From: Flavobacteriales bacterium
Lineage (GTDB): Bacteria; Bacteroidota; Bacteroidia; Flavobacteriales_F; PHOS-HE28
Assembly: GCA_046306055.1 (NCBI GenBank)
Contig: JBKDXR010000016.1
Span: 6,132-70,131 of the forward strand
Direction of reading: 5' to 3'
DNA length: 64,000 nt
The position numbers were made by a program, and so were the translations under genes. Below are positions 22,885-39,458 of this stretch, in pieces (within the stretch, counting starts at the first letter, position 1; the number at the start of each line of letters is the position of its first letter). The notes under the pieces are model-generated. The model searched no databases. It saw nothing but the letters and a program-made list of their open reading frames with translations, and was not told the DNA's origin.

Positions 22885-23011
22885 CGGTCGGAAAAGCCGT
22901 TCGTAGCCTTCCAAATGTAAACGAAAGGCCGTCGCGACCGCATGCCTTGTGGGCCGCCCCGGAACAGGACGGTGGACGACCTGCCAGCCTGCGGTTCCGT
23001 ATCCTTGATGC

Positions 23012-23308
23012 ATGAAACGCTACACCGCCTCCCGCCTCACGGCCGGGAACCGGCTCTTCCCTGCGCAGTTGGTGATCGACGACATGGGCGTGACCCTGCG
23101 CCAGCCCTCGCTGTTCAGCGGGAAGGAGACCTCCATTCCCTACACACGCATCGCGTCGGTGAACATCAGCTGCCCGGCGGTGGGCTATTCCAGCATCCAC
23201 ATCCACACCACGGGCGAGGGGATGATCAACGTGCACGGCTTCCTGCGCAGGGAGGTGGAAGAGATGAAGCGGACGCTGCTGGCCCGCATCAACGAGACCG
23301 AGCGGTGA
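23012..23308 (+). CDS. small hypothetical protein (98 aa, PH-like?)
   Basis: intact ORF divergent from the T9SS gene; no recognised motif. Confidence 0.4.
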   Translation: MKRYTASRLTAGNRLFPAQLVIDDMGVTLRQPSLFSGKETSIPYTRIASVNISCPAVGYSSIHIHTTGEGMINVHGFLRREVEEMKRTLLARINETER

Positions 23309-23759: not shown

Positions 23760-25706
23760 ATGAGCCAGCCCACGCCCTCCTACCCGCTCCTGGAGCGCAT
23801 CACGCTTCCGGCCGACCTGCGTGCCCTGCCTGAGGAGCAACTGCAGCAGGTCTGCACCGAGCTGCGCGACTTCATCATCGACGTGGTGAGCGTGAAGGGT
23901 GGCCACTTCGGCGCCAGCCTCGGCGTGGTGGAACTGACCGTGGCCCTGCACTACGTGTTCAACACCCCCTACGACCAGCTGGTGTGGGATGTGGGTCACC
24001 AGGCCTACGGGCACAAGATCCTCACCGGCCGCCGCGAGGTGTTCCATACCAACCGCATCTACAAGGGCCTCAGCGGCTTCCCCAAGCGCAGCGAGAGCAC
24101 CTACGACACCTTCGGCGTGGGGCATAGCAGCACCAGCATCGGTGGCGCGCTGGGCATGGCCGTGGCCAGCAGGCTGAAAGGTGAGCAGGACCGCCAGTGC
24201 GTGGCCATCATCGGCGATGGTGCCATGACCGCCGGCCAGGCCTTCGAAGCGCTGAACCATGCGGGCGGCGCCGGCACGGACATGCTGGTGGTGCTCAACG
24301 ACAACTGCATGAGCATCGACCCGAACGTGGGCGCGCTCAAGGAATATCTGACCGACATCGCCACCAGCCACACCTACAACAAGGTGAAGGACGAGGTGTG
24401 GAACCTGCTGGGCAAGGTGAGCAAGTTCGGCCCCAACGCGCAGGCCATCGTGCAGAAGGTGGAGCATGCCGTGAAGGGCGCACTGCTCAAGCAGAGCAAC
24501 CTCTTCGAAAGCCTCAACTTCCGCTACTTCGGCCCGGTGGACGGACACGATGTGGACCACCTGGTGAAGGTGCTGAAGGACCTGCGCGACATCCCCGGTC
24601 CGAAGATCCTGCACACGATCACCAAGAAGGGTAAGGGCTACGGACCTGCTGAAGCAGGCAGCCCCACGGTGTGGCACGCTCCGGGCCTCTTCAACAAGGA
24701 GACCGGCGAGATCATCAAGGTGGTGCCCAAGAGCCCGCAGCCACCGAAGTACCAGGACGTATTCGGCCACAGCATCGTGGAGCTGGCCGAGAAGAACCCG
24801 AAGATCGTAGGGGTGACCCCCGCCATGCCTTCGGGCTGCTCGCTCAACATCATGATGAAGGCCATGCCCGATCGCGCTTTTGACGTGGGCATCGCCGAGC
24901 AGCATGCCGTTACGTTCAGCGCCGGGATGGCCACGCAGGGCCTGGTGCCCTTCTGCAACATTTATAGCTCGTTCATGCAGCGGGCCTACGACCAGGTGGT
25001 GCACGATGTGGCGCTCCAGAACCTCAATGTGGTATTCTGCTTGGACCGCGGCGGTCTGGCCGGTGCCGACGGCCCCACACACCACGGCAACTTCGACTTC
25101 GCCTACTTCCGCTGCATCCCCAACATGGTGGTGAGCGCGCCGATGAACGAAGAGGAATTGCGCGACCTGATGTACACCGCCCAGCTGCCGGACCAAGGCC
25201 CCTTCAGCATCCGCTACCCGCGCGGCGAGGGCGTGATGACCGAGTGGAAGACGCCCTTCAAGGCGATCAAGGTGGGCACGGGCCGCAAGCTGCGCTCCGG
25301 CACCGACATCGCAGTGCTCAGCATCGGTCACATCGGCAACCTGGCCGCCAAGGGCATCGACGCACTGGAGGCAGAAGGCTACAGCGTGGCGCACTACGAC
25401 ATGCGATTCGTGAAGCCCATCGACGAGCTGCTGCTGCACGAAGTGTTCAGCAAGTTCAAGCACGTGGTCACCGTGGAGGACCACGGCCTGCAGGGTGGCA
25501 TGGGCAGCGCAGTGCTGGAGTTCATGGGCGACCACGGATACGCCGCCCACGTGAAGCGCCTGGCGATCCCCGACAAGTTCATCGAACACGGCACACAGGC
25601 GGAACTCTACCGCGAATGCGGCATCGATGCCATCGCGGTGGTGGAGGCGGTGAAGGAACTTCTTGGTGAGAAGGGTGCGAAGAAGGAGGTGAGGGTGAGC
25701 GCGTGA
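23760..25706 (+). CDS. dxs: 1-deoxy-D-xylulose-5-phosphate synthase
   Basis: TPP-binding GDGAxT motif (IIGDGAMTAGQAFEALNHAG) and full-length Dxs architecture; start aligned on MSQPTPSYPLLERI (alternative upstream starts at 23727/23739); last 16 codons lie beyond the 119-bp repeat. Confidence 0.95.
   Translation: MSQPTPSYPLLERITLPADLRALPEEQLQQVCTELRDFIIDVVSVKGGHFGASLGVVELTVALHYVFNTPYDQLVWDVGHQAYGHKILTGRREVFHTNRIYKGLSGFPKRSESTYDTFGVGHSSTSIGGALGMAVASRLKGEQDRQCVAIIGDGAMTAGQAFEALNHAGGAGTDMLVVLNDNCMSIDPNVGALKEYLTDIATSHTYNKVKDEVWNLLGKVSKFGPNAQAIVQKVEHAVKGALLKQSNLFESLNFRYFGPVDGHDVDHLVKVLKDLRDIPGPKILHTITKKGKGYGPAEAGSPTVWHAPGLFNKETGEIIKVVPKSPQPPKYQDVFGHSIVELAEKNPKIVGVTPAMPSGCSLNIMMKAMPDRAFDVGIAEQHAVTFSAGMATQGLVPFCNIYSSFMQRAYDQVVHDVALQNLNVVFCLDRGGLAGADGPTHHGNFDFAYFRCIPNMVVSAPMNEEELRDLMYTAQLPDQGPFSIRYPRGEGVMTEWKTPFKAIKVGTGRKLRSGTDIAVLSIGHIGNLAAKGIDALEAEGYSVAHYDMRFVKPIDELLLHEVFSKFKHVVTVEDHGLQGGMGSAVLEFMGDHGYAAHVKRLAIPDKFIEHGTQAELYRECGIDAIAVVEAVKELLGEKGAKKEVRVSA
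25539..25657. repeat. 119-bp direct repeat, copy 1 (inside dxs 3' end)
   Basis: identical base-for-base to 33002-33120. Confidence 0.95.
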
Positions 25707-25727
25707 GTGGTGCGCTTTCCCCGTTGG

Positions 25728-26684
25728 TCATTCCTTTTTCACGTCCAACAGTTGAGATAGCTTTGCGTACTTAAGGTCTTTTTGGGCGGCCTTCGTGGAA
25801 CCGTACCCCTCTGGACTAACCGCCCACCGATAGAGAGCTTCTCTGTATTCGAATTCCATCTTGGCAAGGGTTGCCCCACGCCTGAAATTGTAGGCTGAAG
25901 CGCTCGGTGCTGACCCTGAGGTTCTGTTGAATCTTTCGAAGCCGCGCTTCGCATAGCCAAATGGATCCTTGTCCTCGTTGATCAAAGCCTGCTGCAGGAG
26001 GACCGCGATCTTCTCGAGATCTCGATAGTTCCCTGCCAATGGCAAGCTGTCGAGCCATGTATTGAAAGCTGAGGCATCGACCGGGATGGACTGCTTGAAG
26101 AGCATGTTCTTCCAGACAGTAGCGAAGGCTGCTGAGGGTTTCACCTCTTGCTCTTGCACCGAAGGCAGATACAATCCGAGCTGATTGATGCGGTCGAAGA
26201 GGTCCGGCAGAAGCATCTTCTCCAACTCCTCAACAGTCCTATTGGAAGCGAAGACGGGTTGAAAGCGCGCGAATTCTTCGCTATCCGACCCTACCCGGCG
26301 GAAGCGATACCATCCGTGCGTGCCCTTGTGATTAACTGTTTGCAGGGCCGTCATGAGCTTCTCCTGCACCCGCTTATTGAGGTTGTGGATCTCATCGAAG
26401 AAGAGCATGCCGGATTTGTTTGCTTCATGGAACAAGCCGGACTTATTGGAGACCGCCCCTGTGAACGCACCTTTTACGTGACCGAATAGCTCACTGAGCG
26501 CCATGGTGTCCCCTTCGACACTTGCACAGTTGAAGTATGTGGGTGGTCCTTTTAGCACCTTTTCACCGACCTCGTTGATCATCTTGGACTTCCCGATACC
26601 ACGGGCTCCGAGCACTAGGACTGAGAATCGGCCGGGGTTCTTGAAGAAGCTCTCCAGTTCGGCTTCTATTTTGTTAATGGGCAT
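25728..26684 (-). CDS. sigma54-interaction-domain AAA+ ATPase (bEBP-like, no receiver domain)
   Basis: Walker A GARGIGKS; GAFTGA loop in HVKGAFTGAVSNKSGLFHEANKSGMLFFDEIHNL; LAGNYRDLEKI matching the bEBP WPGNVRELEN box; possible degenerate C-terminal HTH (GSTKAAQKDLKYAKLSQLL); start at MPINKIEAEL (ATG 26684-26682). Confidence 0.8.
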   Translation of the reverse strand: MPINKIEAELESFFKNPGRFSVLVLGARGIGKSKMINEVGEKVLKGPPTYFNCASVEGDTMALSELFGHVKGAFTGAVSNKSGLFHEANKSGMLFFDEIHNLNKRVQEKLMTALQTVNHKGTHGWYRFRRVGSDSEEFARFQPVFASNRTVEELEKMLLPDLFDRINQLGLYLPSVQEQEVKPSAAFATVWKNMLFKQSIPVDASAFNTWLDSLPLAGNYRDLEKIAVLLQQALINEDKDPFGYAKRGFERFNRTSGSAPSASAYNFRRGATLAKMEFEYREALYRWAVSPEGYGSTKAAQKDLKYAKLSQLLDVKKE

Positions 26685-26703
26685 GATGTAAATATATCGT
26701 AGT

Positions 26704-26718
26704 GATGATAATATCATC
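26704..26718. promoter_or_regulatory. 15-bp palindrome gatgat-aat-atcatc in the divergent intergenic region (candidate UAS/operator)
   Basis: near-perfect dyad ~80-90 bp upstream of the sigma54-like element at 26799 and just upstream of the ATPase start. Confidence 0.35.
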
Positions 26719-26798
26719 TCGATAGATTTTCCGCCAAATGGCATAAGCCGCTCAAATCCAACAGACTATCTATGGCTCACGTGTTGGACGAAAGGTCT

Positions 26799-26812
26799 TG
26801 GCACGGCTTTGC
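26799..26812 (+). promoter_or_regulatory. sigma54-like -24/-12 element (TGGCAC-N4-TTGC; spacing one nt shorter than consensus)
   Basis: tggcacggctttgc about 30 nt upstream of the DUF4258 ATG and beside a bEBP-type ATPase gene; GG-N9-GC rather than the canonical GG-N10-GC. Confidence 0.3.
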
Positions 26813-26843
26813 TAATAGGAGGGTGCAACAAGTTCCCCAGCCC

Positions 26844-27137
26844 ATGCAACCCCACATCATCGTCCCCAGCCTGCACGCCGTGCAACGAGCCTACGAGCGT
26901 GGTATCACCACACCCATGATCCAAGACACCCTTCGGTGGGGGAAGAAACTCCACCGCCAAGGGCTGCGCTTCTTCGTCATGCTTCGCTGCTGCATCCCAC
27001 CCGGCTTGGATGAACGCTATGCGAAGCAATTGGTGAATGTGACCGTGGTGCTCGGCGGTGATGAGACCATCGTCACGGTGTACCGCAACCCGAAGGCTAT
27101 AGCCCACATCAAGCGCAAACCCAAGCGACTCCTATGA
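26844..27137 (+). CDS. DUF4258-family small protein (RelE/toxin-like fold)
   Basis: MQPHIIVPSLHAVQRAYERGIT matches the H-A-x-x-R-M-x-E-R-G-I signature of DUF4258; stop overlaps the next ATG (ATGA); an upstream in-frame ATG at 26772 is possible. Confidence 0.6.
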   Translation: MQPHIIVPSLHAVQRAYERGITTPMIQDTLRWGKKLHRQGLRFFVMLRCCIPPGLDERYAKQLVNVTVVLGGDETIVTVYRNPKAIAHIKRKPKRLL

Positions 27138-28414
27138 GGATCCTCAAGATCATCCATGGCTACCCTCCACTGTATAGCGCAGGGTCGGAGGTCTACAGCC
27201 AGAGCACCTGTGACCAGCTCGCGAAACATCACGAGGTGCTGGTGTTCACCCGCGAGGAGAATCCTTTCGCGCCAGACTTTTCGTTGCGGCGCGTAAAGGG
27301 GGAGAGCGGACCCAAGCGCGTCCTGGTGAACATGCCGCGCGGCAAGGATGGGTATCGCCACAAGGAGTTGGACGAGCGCTTCGCCGAGGTGCTCCGTTCG
27401 TTCGGTCCGGATGTGGCGCACATTAGCCATCTCAATCATCTGTCCACCGGCATCGTGGATGTGCTCAAGGAGGCTGGCATTCCCATCGTGTTCACCCTGC
27501 ACGACTTCTGGCTGATGTGCCCGCGCGGGCAGTTCTTGCAGCGCAATTTCGGAGGAGGTGTGGTGCATGCCCTGTGCGATGGCCAGGAGGACCGCAAGTG
27601 CGCCACATCGTGTTACGCATCCCTGATGTCCGGTGAAGAAGGCCAACATGAGCGTGACGAAGACTATTGGACAGCATGGATCCACCAGCGCATGCGCGCG
27701 TCCAAGCGCCTCTCTGAAAGCGTGGACCGGTTCATCGCCCCATCGCGCTACCTTATGGATCGCTTCATCCGCGACTTCGGACTGCCCGCTGAGAAGGTCA
27801 TGCACCTGGACTATGGCTTTCCGGTCCACTACCTGACGCCATCAGTGAAACGCACACCATCCGACAAGTACCGCTTCGGCTACATCGGCACGCACATCCC
27901 GGCAAAAGGGGTCAACCTGCTTCTTGAAGCATTCGATGGGTTGGGCGATGCGGCCGAGTTACACATTTGGGGCGCCAAGGATGAGCAAAGCACCCGAGCG
28001 TTGCGGAGCATGGCGGACGGCAAAGTCGGAATCCACTTCCATGGTCCGTATGTCAATCACAACCTGGCCAACGAGGTTTTCGCAGTAGTGGACTGCATTG
28101 TGGTGCCGTCCATCTGGATGGAGAACTCACCCTTGGTGATCCACGAGGCCCAGGCCTGTCATATCCCCGTGATCACAGCGAACGCCGGGGGTATGGCCGA
28201 GTATGTAGCGCACCAGGTGAACGGTCTGCTTTTCCAGCATCGCTCGGCGGTCGACCTGCGCCATTGGATGCGCTGGGCGGTGGAGCATCCACATACCATG
28301 AAGCAACTCGGCGAGCGCGGCTATCTCCATGTGGCTGACGGTGCCATTCCGGACATCGAAGAGCACTGCAAGGCACTCGAAAACATGTACACCAACCTCA
28401 TTAGCAGACCATGA
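27134..28414 (+). CDS. glycosyltransferase family 4 (GT-B, group 1)
   Basis: 426 aa; C-terminal E-x7-E motif (ENSPLVIHE) and GT4 Rossmann repeats; 4-nt overlaps at both ends. Confidence 0.8.
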   Translation: MRILKIIHGYPPLYSAGSEVYSQSTCDQLAKHHEVLVFTREENPFAPDFSLRRVKGESGPKRVLVNMPRGKDGYRHKELDERFAEVLRSFGPDVAHISHLNHLSTGIVDVLKEAGIPIVFTLHDFWLMCPRGQFLQRNFGGGVVHALCDGQEDRKCATSCYASLMSGEEGQHERDEDYWTAWIHQRMRASKRLSESVDRFIAPSRYLMDRFIRDFGLPAEKVMHLDYGFPVHYLTPSVKRTPSDKYRFGYIGTHIPAKGVNLLLEAFDGLGDAAELHIWGAKDEQSTRALRSMADGKVGIHFHGPYVNHNLANEVFAVVDCIVVPSIWMENSPLVIHEAQACHIPVITANAGGMAEYVAHQVNGLLFQHRSAVDLRHWMRWAVEHPHTMKQLGERGYLHVADGAIPDIEEHCKALENMYTNLISRP

Positions 28415-29433
28415 GCACATTCTGGCGGATCACCCTGGATACTAATCCAGAGGATTGCAACCTGAGCTGCACCATGTGCGAAGAGCACAGTGAGTTCAGC
28501 GATTTCATGCAACGCTTGTACGAGCGCACAGGCGTCAAGCGACGGCGCATGCCTTTCGACATGGTGCAGAAGGTGATGGAGCAGGCCGCTGCAATGGGTG
28601 TGCGTGAGATCATCCCGTCCACCATGGGCGAACCACTTCTCTACCGGCAGATGGATGAGCTGCTGGAGTTGGCCAAGGAGCTTGGCATGAAGGTGAATCT
28701 GACCACCAATGGCACCTTTCCGAAGCGCTCTGTGGAGGATTGGGCGGAGCGCATCGTGCCGGTCACTTCGGATGTGAAGATCTCGTGGAACGGCGCTACC
28801 AAGGAAACGACGGAAGCTGTGATGAAGGGCCTGAAGTTCGAGCAGGCCATCGCCAATGTGGAGCGCTTCATAGCGGTACGTGATGCACACCATGCAGCTA
28901 CAGGGCACTACTGCCGGGTGACCTTCCAGCTTACCTTCATGCAGAACAATATGCACGAGTTGCCGGATATCATCGCGCTCGCTGCAAGGCTTGGTGTGGA
29001 TCGTGTGAAGGGCCATCATCTCTGGGCACATTTCGAGGAGATCCAGCACCTGAACTTCAAGGCATCCGCCCAGACGATCGATCGTTGGAACGACATCGTG
29101 GATCTGGCCGTGGCCGCTGCCGCGAAACACCCGAGGCACGATGGAACACCTGTCCTGCTGGAGAATATCACTCCCCTGTTGCCACAGAATGGCCATGCGG
29201 TTCCCCACACCCACGAGTGCCCTTTCCTGGGCAAAGAGCTTTGGGTTTCTGCTACGGGCGACATCTCTCCCTGCTGCGCGCCGGACGACCTGCGGCGATC
29301 GCTGGGAGACTTCGGCAATGTGAGCGAACGGAGCCTAGCCGAGGTGGTGGCCGATGAAGCATACCAAGACCTGATGCGGGACTACCGCGACCGGCCGCTT
29401 TGTAGCACCTGCAACATGCGCAAGCCATGCTGA
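28411..29433 (+). CDS. radical SAM enzyme with SPASM/twitch-like C-terminal cysteine cluster
   Basis: CNLSCTMC (CxxxCxxC) radical-SAM motif at residues 16-23; C-terminal CPFLGKELWVSATGDISPCC ... CSTCNMRKPC auxiliary Fe-S cysteine pattern. Confidence 0.8.
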   Translation: MSTFWRITLDTNPEDCNLSCTMCEEHSEFSDFMQRLYERTGVKRRRMPFDMVQKVMEQAAAMGVREIIPSTMGEPLLYRQMDELLELAKELGMKVNLTTNGTFPKRSVEDWAERIVPVTSDVKISWNGATKETTEAVMKGLKFEQAIANVERFIAVRDAHHAATGHYCRVTFQLTFMQNNMHELPDIIALAARLGVDRVKGHHLWAHFEEIQHLNFKASAQTIDRWNDIVDLAVAAAAKHPRHDGTPVLLENITPLLPQNGHAVPHTHECPFLGKELWVSATGDISPCCAPDDLRRSLGDFGNVSERSLAEVVADEAYQDLMRDYRDRPLCSTCNMRKPC

Positions 29434-29951
29434 AAGTGCTGCTATTCGGCAATCTGGGGTCCGGCAAAAGCCATCTGGCCGAGCGGTTCATACAGCGCCA
29501 CCCGATCTACGAACACGTTGCCATTGATGCCTTCCGAAGGACCCACGGCGATGGAACCATGGCCGGGGAGCGCACCGCCAAGGAATGCTTCATCCTCAGC
29601 GTCCTTCCCGGTATGCCACAACTCATCGAAGCCACTGGACTTGGCGAGACCGGAGTGCTCTTGGCGGAACGACTGGATGCCATGGAAGAGCACATGCTCA
29701 TCGTGCTCCTGACCACTCCGCTTGAACGCTGTTTGACCCGACTCGAGCAGAGGATCTGGGACGTGCCTTATCCCGCACCTCCAGAGGAAGCCTTGGAGCT
29801 TGCCCGGAGGACCGATGCGTTCATAAAGGCGGGAGAAGTGGAAATGATCTGGGACAGGGCGGGGAGGACGCAACTGATCAAAGGGGATTGCTCCGATGAG
29901 CGATCCATGAACGAACTGCTGGAACGAATGGAACACCACCTGCTGAAATGA
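29427..29951 (+). CDS. small P-loop NTPase/kinase
   Basis: Walker A GNLGSGKSHL at the N-terminus; 174 aa, size and layout of shikimate/gluconate/nucleoside-kinase-like P-loop kinases. Confidence 0.65.
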   Translation: MLKVLLFGNLGSGKSHLAERFIQRHPIYEHVAIDAFRRTHGDGTMAGERTAKECFILSVLPGMPQLIEATGLGETGVLLAERLDAMEEHMLIVLLTTPLERCLTRLEQRIWDVPYPAPPEEALELARRTDAFIKAGEVEMIWDRAGRTQLIKGDCSDERSMNELLERMEHHLLK

Positions 29952-31360
29952 AACACCACAAGATCATCACCCAAGTCGAACAACGTATCGCCGCATTGGA
30001 CGGTATCGAGGCCGCCGTGCTCTATGGTTCGGTAGCAAGGGGCGAAGCGACCCCGAACTCGGACATCGACCTTGGCATCATCGTCAATGATCGGTTCGAT
30101 CGGGATGCGTTGATCGAGGCCTTTAAGGGCATGGAGCTTCAACCGGACCATGTGATGCCGGTATCGATGCGCAACAAGGTCGTTGCCTATTTCCAGGATA
30201 TGCGCATCAAATTGGAGGTGGCACTTCATCATGACCTGGCATCCTTTGGCCGCGACCTCTCAGGCTCGGTCATTCCGGAGCACCTGCTGCCCAATGCTGT
30301 GCTGCTGGACCGAACAGGCACTCTGGTGCAGCGCATCCTCGACATGAACGGCTCGGGATACAAGCCCTACTCCGTAGAGGAACTCGTGCAGAAGTTCATC
30401 TACGAGTTCGACAATCTGTCCACCTTCCACCGCCGGAGCGACGGTTACCGGGCACTCTACTTTCATCAGATCGCGCTGCATTGCCTGGTGCAACTGATGA
30501 ACATGCGCAGTAACGGCGACCGGTTCCAGTTCCTGCCCCGCAACCTGTTGGTGAACATCAAGGACAAGGAGCAGCTGCGCCGCATTTACGAGCTGAACGG
30601 ATCCATGTATCTGCCGGACATGAACCGCAAGAAGCGCGCGCTGCTGGACATGCTCTATGCCACGCTCGCAGAGTTGGCTTATCCTGAGTTGGATGAAGTA
30701 CGCTTGGTGTTGGAACGCATCTACGACAGGGACCGGCATTGGAACCTGCGTAGTGTAGGTACGCATGGCCCCATGATACGTTGGCCGAATCTGTTGCGAA
30801 GCAGCCTGCCCGCGATCATGCAGCCGGACGTATTGAGTGATCTGCTGGAGCGGAATGCAGTACACACCATCATCGACCTGCGCGCACCTCGTGAACTGGA
30901 AGAGCATCCATACGCAGAGGATGCAATATCCAATGTGCGGTATGTGCATGCGCCGTTCGACCCGTGGGCCCAACCCGATTGGTTCAAGGAGCCGGAATTC
31001 CAGCAGGGCGAGCACCAGGAGATCGCGTACCGCTTCTTTGCATTGGGCTGTCGACAGAGCATCAAGGACATCGTGGACGCGCTCATCGATGTTCCCGAGG
31101 ACATGGGCGCCATCATCCATTGCCATGCGGGGAAGGACCGGACCGGCATTGTCTGCACCTTGCTTCACCTGTTGGTCGGCGCTGAAATGGAAGATGTGAT
31201 GACCGACTACCTCGCCAGCGAATCGGACACCTATGCGCACAACCTGCAAGTGGTGCTCGATGTCATTGAACGCCAAGGGGGCATCCGGGCATACCTCGGC
31301 AACTGTGGTCTGAGCGATGCCCAGATCGATCGACTTCAACAACGCCTGAGCCATGGCTGA
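29948..31360 (+). CDS. fusion protein: minimal nucleotidyltransferase (pol-beta superfamily) N-terminal domain + protein-tyrosine/dual-specificity phosphatase-like C-terminal domain
   Basis: GSVARGEATPNSDIDLGII (GS...DxD NTase motif) at residues 27-45; C-terminal HCHAGKDRTG (CX5R phosphatase P-loop). Confidence 0.75.
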   Translation: MKHHKIITQVEQRIAALDGIEAAVLYGSVARGEATPNSDIDLGIIVNDRFDRDALIEAFKGMELQPDHVMPVSMRNKVVAYFQDMRIKLEVALHHDLASFGRDLSGSVIPEHLLPNAVLLDRTGTLVQRILDMNGSGYKPYSVEELVQKFIYEFDNLSTFHRRSDGYRALYFHQIALHCLVQLMNMRSNGDRFQFLPRNLLVNIKDKEQLRRIYELNGSMYLPDMNRKKRALLDMLYATLAELAYPELDEVRLVLERIYDRDRHWNLRSVGTHGPMIRWPNLLRSSLPAIMQPDVLSDLLERNAVHTIIDLRAPRELEEHPYAEDAISNVRYVHAPFDPWAQPDWFKEPEFQQGEHQEIAYRFFALGCRQSIKDIVDALIDVPEDMGAIIHCHAGKDRTGIVCTLLHLLVGAEMEDVMTDYLASESDTYAHNLQVVLDVIERQGGIRAYLGNCGLSDAQIDRLQQRLSHG

Positions 31361-32306
31361 GCGACCTGAGCAACTCTTCACCGGATACTGGCGCTACCTG
31401 GCCGTCCGGGCCGCCTGCAAACTGGACCTGTTCGAGCATATCGCTGCAGGGGTGCGCACTGTGCCGGGCCTTTGTGCTGCCATTTCCTGCGATCAGCGCT
31501 CCCTGGATAGCCTTGTTGGTGCGCTGGTCCATGAAGAATACCTGTTGCATAGCGAGGAGGGCCTGCGGCTATCTCTGGAAGCCCAGCGGCTTTGTGCTGG
31601 CCATCCTACTAGCGTGAAACATGCCTGCCTGCTGTGGGGTGCAGAGCACATGGATGCCTGGCAACACCTTGACGAAAGCATCCGATCGGGACAGCCGGTT
31701 TTCACGAAGCTGTTCGGCGACACCTTCTTCCGCTACTTGGACGGGCATCCAGAACGGGCCGTGGAGTATCACAGGGCCATGTTCGAATACGCGCGGCAGG
31801 ACTATGCGGGGATCGGTGAGGTCTTGGACCTATCAGCACACCGGTCGGTCATGGATGTTGGAGGTGGCAATGGGGCGCTGGTCGGGTGCTTGAGGGCAGG
31901 TCATCCGGGGGTGTCCTTCCGAATCTTCGACATCCAGGACCACCGCACAGATCATTCGCGGGATATTCTGTTCATCCAAGGCGACTTCTTCAACGCGGTT
32001 CCTGAAGGTTCGGATGCCTTGCTACTCAGCAGGGTGATCCATGATTGGGATGATGCGCAGGCGTTGCAAATACTCCGGAATTGTCACTCCGCACTACCTC
32101 GGGAGGGGGCCCTTTTCCTCATCGAGAACGACCTGTCAATGCTCGCCGACGGTGGACATCTGCTGTCGCTGAACATGCTGGCCACCTGCGGTAGTCGGGA
32201 GCGCAGCGTGCAGGAATATCAACAACTGCTGGAAGGCTCCGGATTCCGGGTCCAAGGTCTTGTCCACCATGGAAATCAGGCGATCATCAAAACTGTACGC
32301 GCATGA
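31353..32306 (+). CDS. class I SAM-dependent O-methyltransferase (small-molecule OMT family 2)
   Basis: VMDVGGGNGALV SAM-binding motif I; N-terminal dimerisation-like region; ~320 aa; no DNA-MTase DPPY/NPPY motif. Confidence 0.8.
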   Translation: MAERPEQLFTGYWRYLAVRAACKLDLFEHIAAGVRTVPGLCAAISCDQRSLDSLVGALVHEEYLLHSEEGLRLSLEAQRLCAGHPTSVKHACLLWGAEHMDAWQHLDESIRSGQPVFTKLFGDTFFRYLDGHPERAVEYHRAMFEYARQDYAGIGEVLDLSAHRSVMDVGGGNGALVGCLRAGHPGVSFRIFDIQDHRTDHSRDILFIQGDFFNAVPEGSDALLLSRVIHDWDDAQALQILRNCHSALPREGALFLIENDLSMLADGGHLLSLNMLATCGSRERSVQEYQQLLEGSGFRVQGLVHHGNQAIIKTVRA

Positions 32307-32998
32307 ACTGGCATGATATCAAACCCTCCTTGGACGGTGCGCACTTCCTTCTCGGGGGACAACCGATCTGGATCGACCGCTTCATGGCCGTTATGTCCTT
32401 CCATGCTCCTGGCGTGGCACCCGTACAGGATGTTTCCGGTTGGTACCACATTGATGCAGAAGGTTGTCCCTTGTACAAAGCGCGCTACCACAAGGCCTAT
32501 GGCTTCTATTGTGACCGTGCAGCGGTCAAGGACAAGACAGGTTGGTTCCACATCGACCTTAACGGCGATGCGTGCTATCCTGAGCGCTACGCGTGGTGCG
32601 GCAATTTCCAAGAGAATTGCTGCGCTGTACGGTCATCGGATGGATACCATCATATCGATCCGTTAGGCCGGGCGCTGTATGCGGAACGCTGGCAATACGC
32701 TGGGGATGCGCGGGATGGGGTCATTTGTGTGCAAAGCGCCGGAGAGGCCTTCCACATCCGCAAGGATGGGAGCAAGCTGTACCCGGCGACCCATCGTTTC
32801 GTGCATGTGTTCCACAAGGGCTTCGCCGTTGCGTTAGACACGTTGGGTTGGTGCCATATCGACCGATCGGGACAACCCATCCATGCGCATCGCTTCCAGT
32901 ACTTGGAGCCGTTCTACAATGGTGTGGCGGTAGCGATCGATGGGGAGGGTCGGAACGTGATGGTCAATGAGGTGGGTGAGGTGACCTTGTTGGGATAG
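32303..32998 (+). CDS. WG-repeat protein (about five ~45-aa repeats with conserved GW-[HY]-I-D)
   Basis: repeats GWYHIDAEG, GWFHIDLNG, GYHHIDPLG, AFHIRKDG, GWCHIDRSG; stop codon lies 3 nt before repeat copy 2. Confidence 0.65.
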   Translation: MNWHDIKPSLDGAHFLLGGQPIWIDRFMAVMSFHAPGVAPVQDVSGWYHIDAEGCPLYKARYHKAYGFYCDRAAVKDKTGWFHIDLNGDACYPERYAWCGNFQENCCAVRSSDGYHHIDPLGRALYAERWQYAGDARDGVICVQSAGEAFHIRKDGSKLYPATHRFVHVFHKGFAVALDTLGWCHIDRSGQPIHAHRFQYLEPFYNGVAVAIDGEGRNVMVNEVGEVTLLG

Positions 32999-33001
32999 GG
33001 C

Positions 33002-33120
33002 TACGCCGCCCACGTGAAGCGCCTGGCGATCCCCGACAAGTTCATCGAACACGGCACACAGGCGGAACTCTACCGCGAATGCGGCATCGATGCCATCGCG
33101 GTGGTGGAGGCGGTGAAGGA
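33002..33120. repeat. 119-bp direct repeat, copy 2
   Basis: identical to 25539-25657. Confidence 0.95.
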
Positions 33121-33177
33121 GATGGTGGGGGCCTCTGCTGTTGGCTTCGGCCGGGCTGCGGGTAAGAGGGGATGATC
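33002..33177 (+). pseudogene. displaced dxs 3'-end fragment (last ~58 codons with an alternative tail ...VKEMVGASAVGFGRAAGKRG*)
   Basis: reads in the dxs frame through the repeat and continues 19 codons to TGA; no start codon or upstream gene body. Confidence 0.8.
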
Positions 33178-33290
33178 CGTCACTGCCCTTCTCATTAGTG
33201 CTTCGTTAACGATGGACGCCTGCTTCAAGGAGCAATAAGCGACTATTTCTGGGCTTGTATTCACCGTATATGCGTATATATGGTGACACG

Positions 33291-34413
33291 GATTCAACTC
33301 ATAAACGCAATCGGATAGACTGACAGGAGAGCTGATGATTTCTTCAGGAGGAGGAGAGGCTTTTACCCCTCGATCCCCGCTGAATGGAGGATGCGGCCTA
33401 CCCTTGTTCTGGGGTCCAATCCGTTGCAAGAATGAGCCACATCACCGATGAGCAAAGGTGCATCATACAACGCATGAAGAAGGCCGGTCATCAGCAGAAG
33501 CGGATCGCCGAGGCCATTGGCAAGTCCGAGTCGGCGGTGAGCCGCGAGATCAGGCGCAACTGCGACCAGCGCAGCGGCGCGTAGAACGCTGACCTGGCTG
33601 CCCGCAAGAGCGCGCAGCGCAAGAAGGACAAGCCCAAGGCGGTGCGCTTCACCGCTGCCATTCGCGCTAAGGTGGAACGGCAACTGGCCCAGAAGCTCAG
33701 CCCGGAGCAGATCGTGGGCGTTGCCGTGCGCGCGGGCCGCGACATGGTCTCCCATGAGCGCATCTATCAGCATATCTGGCAGAACAAGAAGTGCGGCGGC
33801 CACCTGCACGAGCGCCTGAGCACGCGCGGTAAGCCCTACCGCAAGCGAGGCGCGGCCAAGGACAGCAGAGGCATCATCAAAGACCGGGTGGGCATCAATC
33901 AGCGGCCCACAGTGGTTGAGAGGCGCAAGCGGTTCGGCGACCTGGAGATGGACACGATCATAGGTCGCAAGCACAAGGGCGCCATCGTCACGATCAACGA
34001 CCGCGCCAGCGGGATTCTATTGATGCGCAAGGTGCCCCGCAAGGAATCTGGTCTGGTGGCCCAGGCCGCTATCGAAGCGCTGCGCCCTTGGAAACCGCTG
34101 CTGCACAGGGCCACCAGCGACAACGGGAAGAAGTTCGCCGATCATCAGCTCATCGCCCGCAAGCTCCAGTTGGACTTCTTCTTCGCCAAGCCCTACCATA
34201 GCTGTGAGCGCGGCTCCAACGAGAACCTCAACGGCCTCATCCGCCAGTACATCCCCAAGCAGACCGATTTCGACACCCTCACCGATGAGTTCATCCAGTA
34301 CGTCCAAGACCAGATCAACAGCCGACCAAGGAAACACTTCATCTTCGACACCCCGAGCAACGAGTTCAACCGACTAACCCGATGACCCAGCGATTGCGTT
34401 TATGAGTTGAATC
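33291..34413 (+). mobile_element. IS30-family insertion sequence (1123 bp)
   Basis: perfect 23-bp terminal inverted repeats gattcaactcataaacgcaatcg (33291-33313) and cgattgcgtttatgagttgaatc (34391-34413); internal DDE transposase; possible 2-bp CG target duplication. Confidence 0.85.
33432..34385 (+). pseudogene. IS30-family transposase interrupted by an in-frame TAG (33582-33584)
   Basis: HTH part (MSHITDEQRCIIQRMKKAGHQQKRIAEAIGKS...) and DDE catalytic part (MRFTAAIRAK...) are in the same frame, separated only by one TAG codon. Confidence 0.75.
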
Positions 34414-34739
34414 CGCCGGTATCAGCCTGAAGTGACCAGTCGGAAATGGGTAGTGATGCTCCTAAGGCCATTGCGAAAATGGTTGCGGTGATGAGGCAGG
34501 TTCCCCGATCGGGTCAACGCTGGACGCAGGAAAGTGGACCACTGGATCCCATTTGGTTCGTTGCCCTCTGCTGGCTGACCCCGCCATCCCTTACGCCATG
34601 ACTGCAAAACGCCGACACCTCTTTGTATTTCCGCGGAAGTGAGACGATGTGCTGTTGGGACGAGGTACCACCACCGAGTATCCTAGCTTTGCACCGAATA
34701 ATGGATGCGGAGCACTCCGCCTAAGCGGGCACTCGGTTC

Positions 34740-35321
34740 ATGGCTGAACTCATCGATACACTGCGCAACTTCGCACCATGGTCGGAGGCCGAGGCCGGAG
34801 CACTTCAAGGTCATTTCAAGGCAGTTACCGTGAAGAAGGGACAGACCCTCCTGCAGAAGGGCGACTTGTGCGACGGGATCTTCTTTATCCGAAACGGCGG
34901 GCTTCGCACATGGTTCTATGACAACAAGGGGCGCGAGGTAACGCGTTACATCGGACTACCGGGGTATTTCTGCACAACGTTGGACAGCTTCATAGAAGGT
35001 TCCGCTTGCAAAGAGAACGTCGAAGCCTTCGCCGCCAGCGAGCTCCTTTTGTTGCACCGGGACATGCACTTGGAACTTCGGCGGGGCAACCCGAAGTGGG
35101 AACGGGCTTACGTGCAGTTGATGGAATTCGGTTATGTGCTCACCACCTGGAGGCTCATCAGCACCCTGAGCCTGAGTGCCGAGGAGCGTTTCGAGGATCT
35201 GCGCGCCAGAGCCCCGCATCTCCTGCGCGAAGTGCCGGACCGCATCATTGCCAGCTATCTGGGCATGGCACCAGAGTACCTAAGCCGGTTGAAGGCCAAG
35301 GCGCTCCGCGTGAAGTCTTGA
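34740..35321 (+). CDS. Crp/Fnr-family transcriptional regulator
   Basis: cNMP-binding-like N-terminal domain and C-terminal HTH (RIIASYLGMAPEYLSRLK). Confidence 0.8.
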   Translation: MAELIDTLRNFAPWSEAEAGALQGHFKAVTVKKGQTLLQKGDLCDGIFFIRNGGLRTWFYDNKGREVTRYIGLPGYFCTTLDSFIEGSACKENVEAFAASELLLLHRDMHLELRRGNPKWERAYVQLMEFGYVLTTWRLISTLSLSAEERFEDLRARAPHLLREVPDRIIASYLGMAPEYLSRLKAKALRVKS

Positions 35322-35366
35322 CATTTTGCAAGGGCTCGGACAAGGGCAAGCCGCTAGCCTTGCATC

Positions 35367-36089
35367 ATGGCTGCGCTGCTCACCACCATCGCCAGGACCT
35401 TTCTAGCGAAGGGGCGTTTGGTCTCCGTTCAGCCGTTGAACGCGGTAGCAACGCATATCGTGCTTTGCCCCGAGCATAGGGGCCTCTGCAACGTTCGGGC
35501 TGGTTCGCAACTCGGGATCTGGACGCACGAATACGGCACAGGCGTGGGTGATGCTCGGCGCACCTATAGCGTATGGCAGTGCGACAGGCACAGCGGTGAT
35601 CTCCATTTAGCCCTTTGCCACCTCTCCGAAGGTCCTGGTCAACATTGGGCGCGAAATGTCGTTGCTGGAGATGAGGTGCTCTTCTCCAAACCGGAAGTGA
35701 AGTTCGGCTTGGCGGATGCAGCGCTGCCGGCGGTCTATATCGGTGATACGTGCGCACAGTATCATCTCTATGCGCTCCGTCGTGGGTTGCTTGCCAGCGC
35801 ACCCGGTTCCGGCATTGTTCACGCCGATGCGCCTGACCACGTTTTCTCGGACCATGAGGGGTCAACGCCTTTCGCCACGCTGGTGCAACCCGAATGGGTG
35901 GTTGACGCGTTGATCGACCGGATCGAGCACCTCGGCACGACGCGGCACGCCAACACTGTATTGCACATCACCGGTGAAGCAGGTGTCGTCAAGGCCCTGC
36001 ACGATCACCTCTATCGCAACCTCGGCATACCCCAGGCACGGATAACAGCCAAGGCGTTCTGGAAACCAGGCAGGACGCGTATGGAATAA
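35367..36089 (+). CDS. siderophore-interacting protein (ferric-siderophore reductase, FAD-binding 9/SIP family)
   Basis: 240 aa; R-x-Y-S/T motif (RRTYSVW) and SIP C-terminal region; stop overlaps the TonB receptor start (TAATG). Confidence 0.7.
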   Translation: MAALLTTIARTFLAKGRLVSVQPLNAVATHIVLCPEHRGLCNVRAGSQLGIWTHEYGTGVGDARRTYSVWQCDRHSGDLHLALCHLSEGPGQHWARNVVAGDEVLFSKPEVKFGLADAALPAVYIGDTCAQYHLYALRRGLLASAPGSGIVHADAPDHVFSDHEGSTPFATLVQPEWVVDALIDRIEHLGTTRHANTVLHITGEAGVVKALHDHLYRNLGIPQARITAKAFWKPGRTRME

Positions 36090-38464: not shown

Positions 38465-38467
38465 GCG

Positions 38468-39268: not shown

Positions 39269-39458
39269 ACACGTGTGCCAGGATACAGCCGGCCCTGATC
39301 GATCTGCAGAACGGCCCCAGTAGCGGGACTGAGCTATCGTCCGAGCCCCAACTCACTTCTCGCATCAATAGACTTCTTCCAATGCCAGCCCTCAGCAGCC
39401 CGGCAACCAGCCCAATACGGCCGGTGGTCCGTTGAAGAGCACAGGGCTTACGTACTGA

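What the first reader, a model, noticed from the sequence alone, without database searches (positions are those of the whole stretch)
26844..32998. Seven-gene translationally coupled operon of unknown function
All seven genes are on the plus strand and every junction overlaps by 4-8 nt (ATGA-type). The encoded set is: DUF4258 small protein, GT4 glycosyltransferase, radical-SAM/SPASM enzyme, P-loop kinase, nucleotidyltransferase-phosphatase fusion, family-2 O-methyltransferase and a WG-repeat protein. This combination matches no defence or biosynthetic system known to me. It looks like a tailoring cassette that could glycosylate, phosphorylate or dephosphorylate, nucleotidylate, methylate and radical-modify one substrate (small molecule, glycan, peptide or nucleotide). 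Together with its own divergently encoded sigma54-type activator and its location on an acquired island, this is my best candidate for an undescribed system in the window.
Basis: partly seen in the sequence, partly recalled or inferred. Interest (0 to 1): 0.8.

Follow-up and report, generated by a model that had tools for sequence, protein, structure and literature searches.

The report
Mobile inducible glycosyltransferase–radical-SAM tailoring operon
A 7.5-kb mobile cassette carries its own switch and seven coupled enzymes of a widespread, apparently undescribed pathway that probably makes a modified sugar- or nucleoside-like compound and often sits next to anti-phage genes.

Summary
Seven plus-strand genes (26844-32998) overlap by 4, 4, 7, 4, 8 and 4 nt. 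Six of the seven domain calls pass curated thresholds; DUF4258 does not.

The unit is a discrete 7,463-bp insertion in the 3' end of dxs, flanked by a 122-nt direct repeat. It is read divergently from a PspF/RtcR-like sigma-54 activator with a GAFTGA loop and a TGGCAC promoter element.

About 50 related loci show the conserved core: GT4 plus radical-SAM (usually fused) plus the WG beta-propeller. The nucleotidyltransferase-phosphatase, O-methyltransferase, kinase, carbamoyltransferase and sugar epimerase are add-ons. Natural fusions of the WG domain to nearly all of them tie the set to one pathway.

The nucleotidyltransferase half folds like the antibiotic-modifying enzymes LinB and ANT. All proteins are soluble and no transporter is present.

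About 16 of roughly 27 contexts lie beside restriction, Wadjet, Pbe, PDC-M27 or integrase genes. One operon contains a genuine viperin plus CMP kinase.

No match was found in PADLOC, NCBIfam, Rfam or the searchable literature.

Best reading (0.42): inducible cytoplasmic synthesis of a decorated glycoside or nucleoside antimetabolite used in defence. The chemistry and the role are inferred, not shown.

The parts
25536..25657 (+). Left copy of the 122-nt direct repeat, inside the 3' end of dxs. Marks the left border of the inserted cassette.
   Evidence: 25536-25657 matches 32999-33120 at 99% identity, start-to-start spacing 7463.
25728..26684 (-). Divergent PspF/RtcR-like sigma-54 enhancer-binding protein (318 aa: AAA+ plus a C-terminal region). 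It has no CARF or other sensor domain.
   Evidence: Sigma54_activat 93.5 bits; PADLOC RtcR_PspF1--CARF_AAA_HTH E=2e-53, matching profile positions 182-455 only. GAFTGA loop and Walker A present. Orthologues sit divergently in 20 related loci.
26704..26718 (.). Perfect inverted repeat GATGATA-A-TATCATC in the divergent intergenic region. Candidate binding site for the activator (inferred).
   Evidence: Comparable palindromes or repeats lie next to the regulator start in other loci (read by eye).
26799..26813 (+). Sigma-54-like promoter TGGCAC-GGCT-TTGCT. The -24 element is canonical; the -12 element is one base closer than the consensus.
   Evidence: TTGGCAC is also found 40-60 nt upstream of the first operon gene in L001, L003, L008, L095 and L100. 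Function is inferred.
26844..27137 (+). g1, small basic protein (97 aa) translationally coupled to GT4. The DUF4258 resemblance is below threshold. Role unknown.
   Evidence: 17.5 bits, below the cut-off of 25; 45% identical orthologue in L001. A small ORF of about 50-115 aa precedes GT4 in 13 or more loci but is poorly conserved.
27134..28414 (+). g2, family-4 (retaining, GT-B) glycosyltransferase with an EX7E motif and an invariant four-cysteine insertion (C129, C148, C156, C160). Core component.
   Evidence: Fused to the rSAM enzyme in most related loci.
28411..29433 (+). g3, radical-SAM enzyme. CxxxCxxC at C16/C20/C23, plus a C-terminal auxiliary-cluster domain with conserved C270, C288, C289, C331 and C334. 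Core component.
   Evidence: Belongs to no curated rSAM family: best hit W_rSAM_matur 80 bits against a cut-off of 380; viperin 36.9 against 180.
29427..29951 (+). g4, P-loop NTPase, putative small-molecule or nucleotide kinase. Accessory.
   Evidence: AAA_33 27.7 bits. Present in only 5 of about 50 loci. A kinase-WG-OMT fusion exists (P0361).
29948..31360 (+). g5, fusion of a LinB/ANT-type two-domain nucleotidyltransferase (residues 1 to about 265) and a PtpB-like cysteine phosphatase (about 265-470). Frequent accessory.
   Evidence: invariant GS...DxD and HCxAGKDRTG; LinB TM 0.71. PTP-only forms and His_Phos_1 replacements occur elsewhere.
31353..32306 (+). g6, class-I O-methyltransferase of the natural-product phenol type. 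Accessory (about half of loci).
   Evidence: (CalO6 E=1e-39, MmcR, DnrK, NcsB1). Very often fused C-terminally to the WG domain.
32303..32998 (+). g7, small beta-propeller-like WG-repeat protein with many invariant His/Asp/Asn/Tyr residues. Core component and fusion hub.
   Evidence: pLDDT 96; 1,492 representatives at E<=1e-30.
32999..33120 (+). Right copy of the 122-nt direct repeat, starting at the base after the g7 stop codon. It is followed by the displaced original dxs tail (to about 33176).

Best explanation
The region is a self-contained, horizontally moving cassette with two parts. One is a PspF/RtcR-like sigma-54 activator. The other, read divergently, is one translationally coupled operon of soluble enzymes that together build or tailor a single cytoplasmic small molecule from nucleotide-sugar or nucleotide precursors.

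Proposed steps (all inferred):
1. The activator is switched on by stress or infection. In relatives it carries an RtcR/CARF-like sensor; here it has none, so it is presumably controlled by a partner.
2. The GT4 enzyme joins a sugar from an NDP-sugar to a phosphorylated acceptor.
3. The radical-SAM partner, which has one auxiliary cluster as in BtrN or MoaA, oxidises, rearranges or C-C-couples that sugar.
4. The WG propeller, the hub to which the other enzymes are often fused, binds or processes the intermediate.
5. The kinase, the cysteine phosphatase and the LinB/ANT-like nucleotidyltransferase manage a phosphate or nucleotidyl handle, either for activation or for self-protection.
6. The O-methyltransferase caps a hydroxyl.

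The product is proposed to be a glycosylated nucleoside-like or aminoglycoside-like antimetabolite that blocks phage (or cell) replication or translation. This would be a chemical defence analogous to viperin.

What is shown: gene structure, domains, conservation, fusions, mobility and genomic neighbourhood.

What is inferred: substrates, order of steps, inducer and antiviral role.
For: Core and accessory pattern over about 50 loci:
- GT4 + rSAM + WG are present wherever the contig reaches them. A minimal two-gene form exists in L168.

Rosetta-stone fusions linking the functions:
- WG-OMT, WG-HisPhos, WG-OMT-HisPhos-NTase, NTase-WG, kinase-WG-OMT, PhyH-WG-OMT and WG-OMT-GT4.

Small-molecule signatures:
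- The NTase half resembles LinB, ANT(6) and ANT(4').
- The OMT resembles CalO6, MmcR and DnrK.
- Optional NodU/TobZ-type carbamoyltransferases and NDP-sugar epimerase/dehydratases are present.
- Non-homologous phosphatases replace one another, PTP against His_Phos_1.
- No protein has a transmembrane segment or signal peptide, and there is no transporter.

Defence and mobility context:
- Neighbours include GmrSD/WYL, PDC-M27, HsdR, McrBC, Wadjet JetD, PbeA/C plus a methyltransferase, IetA-like, C5-methylase plus GHKL ATPase, CHAT, KAP/Mrr, and integrases.
- A bona fide pVip (287 bits against a cut-off of 180) plus a CMP kinase lies inside one operon, L004.
- The cassette is bounded by a 122-nt repeat.

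Regulator: GAFTGA loop and TGGCAC element.

Precedents for rSAM + GT + SDR + phosphatase + methyltransferase logic: the tunicamycin operon (PMC6105854) and PolH/PolJ (PMC5365060).
Against: - No product, substrate or phenotype is known.
- Nothing in the operon obviously supplies an aglycone or aromatic moiety for a phenol-type OMT.
- rSAM enzymes with SPASM/twitch domains more often act on peptides or proteins.
- The window copy itself is not in a defence island; it lies between dxs and an IS30/iron-uptake module.
- About 40% of the contexts examined show no recognisable defence neighbour.
- The neighbourhood tally is not a controlled statistic.
- The viperin association rests on one locus.
- The -12 promoter element is one base off consensus, and most distant regulators lack GAFTGA.
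Confidence: 0.42

Rival explanations
1. Macromolecule-modifying effector system. The WG propeller recognises an invader or host macromolecule (a protein, an RNA or DNA end). The GT4-rSAM enzyme, with the phosphatase, NTase, kinase and methyltransferase, modifies it covalently to disable it.
For: - GT4 domains have been predicted as effectors in conflict systems, and g2 and its relatives hit PF20706 GT4-conflict.
- SPASM/twitch rSAM enzymes are mostly protein or peptide modifiers.
- Beta-propellers are typical recognition modules.
- Kinase + phosphatase + NTase + methyltransferase recalls nucleic-acid end-healing under RtcR control.
Against: - The NTase is of the LinB/ANT type with a helical substrate domain, not a CCA/PAP or ligase type.
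- The OMT is of the phenolic natural-product type.
- The accessory carbamoyltransferases and NDP-sugar epimerases are small-molecule or sugar enzymes.
- The WG protein is highly conserved (many invariant polar residues) rather than diversifying as sensors usually are.
Confidence: 0.2
2. Ordinary secondary-metabolite cluster. The chemistry is the same (a glycoside or nucleoside antibiotic), but the compound is used against competing microbes or as a signal, with no role in phage defence. The defence-island location then only reflects residence in mobile or variable regions.
For: - Enzymology parallels tunicamycin, polyoxin and aminoglycoside pathways.
- The window copy is not beside defence genes.
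- The cassette is mobile.
Against: - No exporter or resistance pump is present in any of about 50 loci.
- The minimal form has only two genes.
- A viperin is embedded in one operon.
- Neighbours are repeatedly restriction, Wadjet or Pbe systems.
Confidence: 0.18
3. Inducible detoxification or resistance cassette. The enzymes inactivate an incoming glycoside antibiotic (aminoglycoside- or lincosamide-like) by nucleotidylation, phosphorylation, glycosylation and methylation. An RtcR-like sensor of translation damage switches the cassette on.
For: - The NTase half resembles LinB, ANT(6) and ANT(4') resistance enzymes.
- RtcR regulons respond to ribosome-targeting antibiotics (PMC12606134, abstract listed).
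Against: - The NTase, kinase and OMT are dispensable accessories, while the GT4-rSAM + WG core has no resistance precedent.
- NCBIfam aminoglycoside-NTase models score far below cut-off: 16 bits against 193-350.
- A phosphatase fused to a modifying NTase is hard to rationalise for resistance.
Confidence: 0.07
4. Cell-envelope glycan or lipid decoration (O-antigen, capsule or glycolipid tailoring), possibly altering phage receptors.
For: GT4, NDP-sugar epimerase, carbamoyltransferase and methyltransferase are common in polysaccharide loci. Weak NCBIfam hits go to TuaC, EpsE, PimB-like and similar models.
Against: - No flippase, polymerase, lipid-carrier enzyme, membrane protein or signal peptide is present (and all neighbourhoods).
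- Scores are far below every curated cut-off.
- The rSAM, NTase-PTP and WG core is foreign to such loci.
Confidence: 0.05

Closest known systems
Prokaryotic viperin (pVip) with nucleotide kinase
   Same: - A radical-SAM-centred, small, soluble, cytoplasmic operon.
- Found in defence islands.
- Makes an antimetabolite from a primary nucleotide.
- One related operon (L004) physically contains pVip plus a (d)CMP kinase under the same regulator.
   Different: - g3 is not a viperin: NF038283 scores 36.9 bits against a cut-off of 180.
- g3 has an auxiliary-cluster domain.
- g3 is obligatorily paired or fused with a GT4 and accompanied by a WG propeller.
- The operon carries many extra tailoring enzymes.
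Tunicamycin (tunA-N) operon and the PolH/PolJ or NikJ/NikL steps of high-carbon nucleoside antibiotics
   Same: - A translationally coupled operon.
- An SDR sugar dehydratase/epimerase, radical-SAM enzyme, glycosyltransferase, phosphatase and SAM methyltransferase act on nucleotide-linked sugars.
- An rSAM step is followed by dephosphorylation.
(PMC6105854, PMC5365060)
   Different: - No acyltransferase, deacetylase, pyrophosphatase, ACP or ABC exporter is present.
- The host phylum, regulator and mobility differ.
- No sequence-level orthology could be tested here.
- WG propeller and NTase-PTP are unique to this system.
Aminoglycoside/lincosamide enzymology: BtrN twitch rSAM, GT4 pseudo-oligosaccharide transferases, TobZ carbamoyltransferase, LinB/ANT nucleotidyltransferases
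   Same: - The fold of the g5 N-terminal half matches LinB at TM 0.71, and also ANT(6) and ANT(4').
- The auxiliary-cluster cysteine spacing of g3 aligns to the BtrN C-terminal domain.
- Relatives carry NodU/TobZ-family enzymes.
   Different: - All sequence scores are far below family cut-offs.
- No 2-deoxystreptamine or aminotransferase genes are present.
- The NTase is fused to a phosphatase.
RtcR-RtcBA RNA-repair regulon and PspF
   Same: - The regulator is an RtcR/PspF-type AAA+ enhancer-binding protein.
- Long forms in L001, L095 and L096 keep an RtcR/CARF-like N-terminal domain.
   Different: - The window regulator lacks the CARF domain and scores 108 bits against 650 on the RtcR equivalog model.
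- The cargo is a glycosyltransferase/rSAM pathway, not RtcA/RtcB.
GT4 effectors of 'conflict systems' (Kaur, Burroughs, Iyer and Aravind 2021, PMC8195603)
   Same: - PF20706 GT4-conflict is matched: 29.8 bits here, stronger in L167, L168 and L174.
- The location is in conflict or defence neighbourhoods.
   Different: - The described architectures are fusions to STAND/AP-GTPase/TRADD-N or ternary-system effectors.
- The paper does not mention radical SAM.

Membership tests
GT4 glycosyltransferase (CAZy GT4, GT-B retaining) | Two Rossmann-like domains matching Glyco_transf_4 and Glycos_transf_1 above the gathering score; EX7E motif in the C-terminal domain. | tested here: met
   (72.7 and 84.7 bits). 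The motif E330-x7-E338 is invariant in 19 of 19 relatives.
Radical-SAM superfamily | CxxxCxxC cluster motif and a Radical_SAM Pfam match. | tested here: met
   C16/C20/C23 are invariant. PF04055 scores 59.5 bits.
Full SPASM subfamily (two auxiliary clusters) | Seven-cysteine motif Cx9-15Gx4C...Cx2Cx5Cx3C...C. | tested here: not met
   Only C270, C288, C289, C331 and C334 are conserved, and the Cx5C cysteine is not. The Pfam SPASM model still matches (44.7 bits). This pattern fits a one-cluster twitch-like domain.
Prokaryotic viperin (pVip) | Score above the NF038283 cut-off (180 bits). | tested here: not met
   g3 scores 36.9 bits. The second rSAM of L004 scores 287.5 bits.
Sigma-54 enhancer-binding protein | AAA+ Sigma54_activat domain with a GAFTGA loop, and a -24/-12 promoter at the target. 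| tested here: met
   93.5 bits. GAFTGA is present. TGGCAC is present, but the -12 spacing is one base short, so the promoter criterion is only partly met.
RtcR (equivalog) | N-terminal CARF domain plus AAA+ plus HTH; score of at least 650 bits on NF038308. | tested here: not met
   108.5 bits. Only the AAA+/C-terminal part of the PADLOC profile is matched, positions 182-455.
Antibiotic O-nucleotidyltransferases (Lnu/ANT) | Pol-beta NTase plus a helical substrate domain; membership by curated HMM. | tested here: inconclusive
   Fold match to LinB at TM 0.71, and to ANT(6) and ANT(4'). NCBIfam ANT models score only about 16 bits against cut-offs of 193-350. The architecture is shared; membership is not established.
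Cys-based protein-tyrosine-phosphatase superfamily (Y_phosphatase3) | HCx5R(S/T) P-loop and a Pfam match. | tested here: met
   114.4 bits. HCxAGKDRTG is invariant in 16 sequences. PtpB match by sequence and by fold.
DUF4258 | Pfam PF14076 gathering score of 25 bits. | tested here: not met
   17.5 bits, E=0.005. No PDB sequence match.
Known or candidate anti-phage systems in PADLOC-DB v2.0 | System-specific HMM hits to the component proteins. | tested here: not met
   Only generic hits were found: weak pVip to g3, MNT-like PDC-S09 to the NTase motif, and RtcR_PspF1 to the regulator.
Tunicamycin-type nucleoside antibiotic cluster | TunA SDR, TunB rSAM, TunC acyltransferase, TunD GT, TunE deacetylase and TunH pyrophosphatase are all required (PMC6105854). 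| tested here: not met
   The window has only the rSAM and the GT. An SDR is present in some relatives. No acyltransferase, deacetylase or pyrophosphatase occurs in any locus. Orthology of rSAM and GT to TunB and TunD could not be tested with these tools.
Pnkp/Hen1 RNA repair | Ligase-type adenylyltransferase, calcineurin-type phosphatase and Hen1 2'-O-methyltransferase. | tested here: not met
   The NTase is Pol-beta/LinB-like, the phosphatase is PTP-type and the methyltransferase is PF00891.

The most novel reading that the evidence does not exclude
The GT4-radical-SAM enzyme with its WG propeller is the core of a previously unrecognised, widespread class of inducible antiviral immunity. On infection it manufactures a new kind of glycosylated nucleotide or nucleoside antimetabolite, in some lineages building on viperin's ddh-nucleotide. 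Kinase, phosphatase, nucleotidyltransferase and methyltransferase modules act as activation or self-immunity steps.
Probability: 0.3. Interest if true: 0.9.

Novelty: new variant of a known kind. Interest (0 to 1): 0.74.

Why it matters
- **New chemical defence.** If the cassette makes an antiviral or antimicrobial small molecule, it would add a second enzymatic route, after viperin, by which bacteria defend themselves chemically. It would also yield a new scaffold of nucleoside- or glycoside-type inhibitor.
- **New enzymology.** The GT4-radical-SAM fusion with an invariant Cys4 insertion and the small histidine-rich WG propeller have no characterised precedent.
- **Testable.** The family is large: 1,492 representative clusters of the hub protein at E<=1e-30. 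The cassette is compact (2-8 genes), fully soluble and mobile. It occurs in cultured strains such as Oceanihabitans sediminis S9-10 and Polyangium jinanense.
- **Regulation.** It is a case of RtcR/PspF-type regulators controlling something other than RNA repair.

Tried and rejected
- **Riboswitch or other RNA leader:** no Rfam match at E<=1 in 25000-34500.
- **tRNA-linked island:** no tRNA gene in the window.
- **Phage or prophage origin:** no family member on 2.9 million viral contigs.
- **RiPP with g1 as precursor peptide:** rejected as the main reading. The small ORF is poorly conserved and of two types, there is no protease or exporter, and a form without a comparable small ORF exists (L168).
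- **g3 as a viperin, BlsE, MoaA, anSME or PqqE orthologue:** all scores are far below cut-off.
- **g4 and g1 against solved structures:** no sequence match.
- **Uniform sigma-54 promoter across all loci:** found only in the subclade with GAFTGA-type regulators.
- **Literature:** eight searches for the gene combination found no description. The two Aravind-lab 'conflict system' papers mention GT4 or rSAM effectors but not this operon.

Full report
**1. Observation**

The seven plus-strand ORFs exist as described. The six junctions are ATG-over-TGA overlaps of 4, 4, 7, 4, 8 and 4 nt. Pfam confirms six domain calls above curated cut-offs:
- g2: GT4.
- g3: Radical_SAM plus SPASM.
- g4: AAA_33 P-loop. 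This is marginal (27.7 bits against 27) and matches the N-terminus only.
- g5: Pol-beta NTase plus Y_phosphatase3.
- g6: Methyltransf_2 plus the dimerisation domain.
- g7: WG_beta_rep.

The DUF4258 call for g1 is below threshold (17.5 bits against 25). I keep the start at 26844. The L001 orthologue aligns from that methionine, and a promoter-like element lies inside the alternative 26772 extension. None of the eight proteins has a signal peptide or a convincing membrane segment.

**2. A discrete mobile cassette**

A 122-nt direct repeat (99% identical) lies at 25536-25657, inside the 3' end of dxs, and again at 32999-33120. The second copy starts at the very base after the g7 stop codon. The start-to-start spacing is 7,463 bp.

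The right copy continues into a displaced alternative dxs tail that ends near 33176. The functional dxs now ends in 16 codons supplied by the insert. So regulator plus operon, and nothing else, entered as one unit, by Campbell-type or site-specific integration.

Composition agrees. Operon GC is 0.58 and GC3 is 0.66-0.75, the regulator has GC 0.53, and dxs has GC3 0.885. A split IS30 transposase follows at about 33434-34385. The host is a Bacteroidota member, judged from T9SS CHU_C/SprB proteins, a TonB-dependent receptor and DUF4249.

**3. The switch**

The divergent gene 25728-26684(-) encodes a 318-aa AAA+ protein with Sigma54_activat (93.5 bits). Its best specific similarity is to RtcR/PspF-type regulators, but only to their AAA+/C-terminal part; it has no CARF domain. 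It carries a Walker A motif and an intact GAFTGA loop.

In the 160-bp intergenic region there is a perfect palindrome, GATGATA-A-TATCATC. There is also TTGGCACGGCTTTGCT 45 nt before g1. The same TTGGCAC element precedes the operon in L001, L003, L008, L095 and L100. Those are exactly the loci whose regulators are closest and keep a GAFTGA-like loop. The -12 element is one base nearer than the consensus, so sigma-54 dependence is likely but inferred.

Long forms of the regulator (606-615 aa; L001, L095, L096) have an N-terminal RtcR/CARF-like region. A second, more divergent subgroup (L004, L022, L169, L171) has lost GAFTGA and has no TGGCAC, and probably works differently.

**4. Conservation**

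The NTase-PTP protein has hundreds of full-length relatives, mostly in Bacteroidota. I examined about 50 loci fetched through it and through the WG protein (tabulated).

The pattern is:
- regulator (divergent);
- a small ORF;
- [NDP-sugar epimerase/dehydratase];
- GT4 + rSAM, fused into one protein of about 765 aa in most loci;
- [P-loop kinase, or a 221-aa unknown protein];
- NTase-PTP, or PTP alone in Kordia, Dokdonia and Oceanihabitans;
- [OMT, in about half of loci];
- [NodU/TobZ-type carbamoyltransferase];
- WG protein.

Loci found through the WG protein show that GT4-rSAM + WG can stand alone (L168). They also show that outside Bacteroidota the phosphatase belongs to the unrelated His_Phos_1 superfamily (L167, L173, L174). 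The seven genes of the window are therefore a three-function core plus four accessories. The full seven-gene order recurs only in L001 and L002 (52-72% identity).

**5. One pathway**

A profile of the WG protein finds 1,492 representative clusters at E<=1e-30. Most top hits are proteins of 540-580 aa. Pfam shows these to be WG-OMT fusions. Other fusions are WG-HisPhos, WG-OMT-HisPhos(-Gad2-like NTase), NTase-WG, AAA_33-WG-OMT, PhyH-WG-OMT, WG-OMT-GT4 and WG-TPR. Such fusions are strong evidence that the operon's enzymes cooperate on one substrate, with the WG domain as hub.

The WG model is very confident (pLDDT 96). It is a compact beta-propeller-like repeat with many invariant His, Asp, Asn and Tyr residues, but it has only generic structural relatives.

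**6. What kind of substrate**

- *g5.* The model (pLDDT 85) has an N-terminal NTase plus helical domain. Its closest matches are lincosamide nucleotidyltransferase LinB (TM 0.71), ANT(6)-Ib and ANT(4'). Its C-terminal domain matches M. tuberculosis PtpB. Catalytic GS...DxD and HCxAGKDRTG motifs are invariant.
- *g6.* The OMT is closest to phenolic natural-product methyltransferases: CalO6, MmcR, NcsB1 and DnrK.
- *g3.* It has the canonical cluster plus five conserved downstream cysteines. Their spacing (C-x17-C ... C-x2-C) fits a single auxiliary cluster. In my recollection this matches BtrN, and HMMER aligns this region to the BtrN C-terminal domain. It belongs to no curated rSAM family.
- *g2.* It is a competent GT4 (EX7E) with an invariant Cys4 insertion (C129, C148, C156, C160), which is unusual for the family.
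- *Accessories.* Carbamoyltransferases and NDP-sugar SDR enzymes point to sugar chemistry.
- *Absences.* No locus contains a transporter, a lipid-carrier enzyme, a PKS/NRPS, a protease or a membrane protein.

Together this favours a cytoplasmic small molecule built from nucleotide-sugar or nucleotide precursors. The recurrent pairing of a glycosyltransferase with a phosphatase, drawn from two unrelated superfamilies, suggests glycosylation of a phosphorylated acceptor followed by dephosphorylation. By established knowledge this is the logic of MshA/MshA2, sucrose-phosphate synthase/phosphatase and GpgS/GpgP. The rSAM-then-phosphatase logic of PolH/PolJ is documented in PMC5365060. The tunicamycin operon (SDR, rSAM, GT, phosphatase and an immunity methyltransferase, translationally coupled; PMC6105854) is the nearest overall analogue. 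Its defining acyltransferase, deacetylase, pyrophosphatase and exporter are absent here.

**7. What for**

Neighbourhoods are rich in defence and mobility genes:
- L001: GmrSD and WYL.
- L003: PDC-M27B/C; L170: a PLD plus SNF2-type helicase pair in the same arrangement (PLD about 25% identical to PDC-M27B).
- L011, L013, L171: HsdR.
- L027, L171: McrBC.
- L024, L102: Wadjet JetD.
- L168: PbeA/PbeC plus a methyltransferase.
- L169: IetA-like AAA plus protease and a giant helicase.
- L008: C5-methylase plus GHKL ATPase.
- L020: CHAT-TPR.
- L167: KAP NTPase, Mrr and NOV_C.
- L174: NERD plus UvrD.
- L175: PDDEXK nucleases.
- L169, L171, L175: tyrosine integrases.

That is about 16 of roughly 27 distinct contexts. 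The count is rough and has no control.

In L004 a bona fide prokaryotic viperin (287 bits, cut-off 180) and a (d)CMP kinase sit inside the operon, between the small ORF and GT4-rSAM. No family member was found on viral contigs. One copy (L170) is decaying into pseudogene fragments beside an IS21.

These features fit an accessory defence-type function. The window copy itself, however, is not in a defence island.

**8. Comparison with the known**

PADLOC v2.0 gives no system-level match. NCBIfam has no specific model for g1, g3, g4 or g7, and Rfam finds nothing. Eight full-text searches found no description. The papers on GT4 or rSAM effectors in 'conflict systems' describe other architectures.

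The system therefore works like a nucleoside or aminoglycoside tailoring pathway and sits where viperin-like defences sit, but it is a member of none of the tested families (see the membership table).

**9. Verdict**

The best explanation is an inducible, mobile cassette that makes a decorated glycoside or nucleoside antimetabolite for defence (0.42). Its rivals are:
- a macromolecule-modifying effector (0.20);
- a non-defence secondary metabolite (0.18);
- an antibiotic-detoxifying cassette (0.07);
- envelope glycan tailoring (0.05).

Everything beyond anatomy, conservation, fusions and context is inference. I rate the novelty as a new variant of a known kind, with a 0.3 chance that it is a new class of chemical immunity.

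Noticed in passing
window 25536-25657 and 32999-33176: A 122-nt direct repeat of the dxs 3' end brackets the cassette. After the right copy lies a displaced alternative dxs C-terminal tail (...EMVGASAVGFGRAAGKRG*). The insert supplies the new last 16 codons of the functional dxs.
   Followed up: yes
window 33434-34385: An IS30-family transposase is split into two ORFs (about 50 aa plus 247 aa; NF033563 241 bits) immediately after the right repeat. It may be decayed, and may be connected with mobilisation of the region.
   Followed up: partly
window 33121-39300: A second low-GC stretch (0.58) carries a Crp-like regulator, a siderophore-interacting protein, a TonB-dependent receptor and DUF4249. 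It looks like a separate acquired iron-uptake module.
   Followed up: partly
L004 6039-7699: A (d)CMP kinase and a bona fide prokaryotic viperin are embedded inside a homologous operon in a Bacteroidales MAG (GCA_049315325). This was the only such case among about 50 loci.
   Followed up: yes
window 27518-27613 (g2 residues 129-160); alignment of 19 relatives: The GT4 N-terminal domain has an invariant HD[FY]W..C.RGQ ... C-x7-C-x3-C motif (four cysteines). This suggests a Zn or Fe-S site that is not typical of GT4 enzymes.
   Followed up: partly
L170 8157-9996: A GT4-rSAM gene is broken into five or more fragments next to an IS21, while the NTase-PTP and WG genes remain intact. This is a decaying copy of the system.
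   Followed up: no
L024, L025, L027, L101, L102: In Flavobacteriaceae (Dokdonia, Kordia, Oceanihabitans sediminis S9-10) the NTase half is missing and only a PTP of about 200 aa remains. These are cultured strains and so usable for experiments.
   Followed up: partly
P0241 (1870 aa), P0276 (824 aa): The WG module also occurs as 11 tandem stretches in one giant protein and fused to TPR repeats. These forms lie outside the operon type studied here.
   Followed up: no
L088 1898-2563, L092 178-843: A 221-aa protein with no Pfam match occupies the position of the kinase, between the rSAM and NTase-PTP genes, in two loci.
   Followed up: no
L173 10001-13006: One polypeptide combines WG, OMT, His_Phos_1 and a Gad2-like domain (PF26128). 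My understanding that Gad2 is a nucleotidyltransferase-type domain comes from memory. If so, the phosphatase-NTase pairing recurs with a non-homologous phosphatase.
   Followed up: partly
window 11558-14659 and 20449-23013(-): Two large SprB-repeat/CHU_C (type IX secretion) surface proteins lie in the window. The second sits in the highest-GC stretch (0.67).
   Followed up: no
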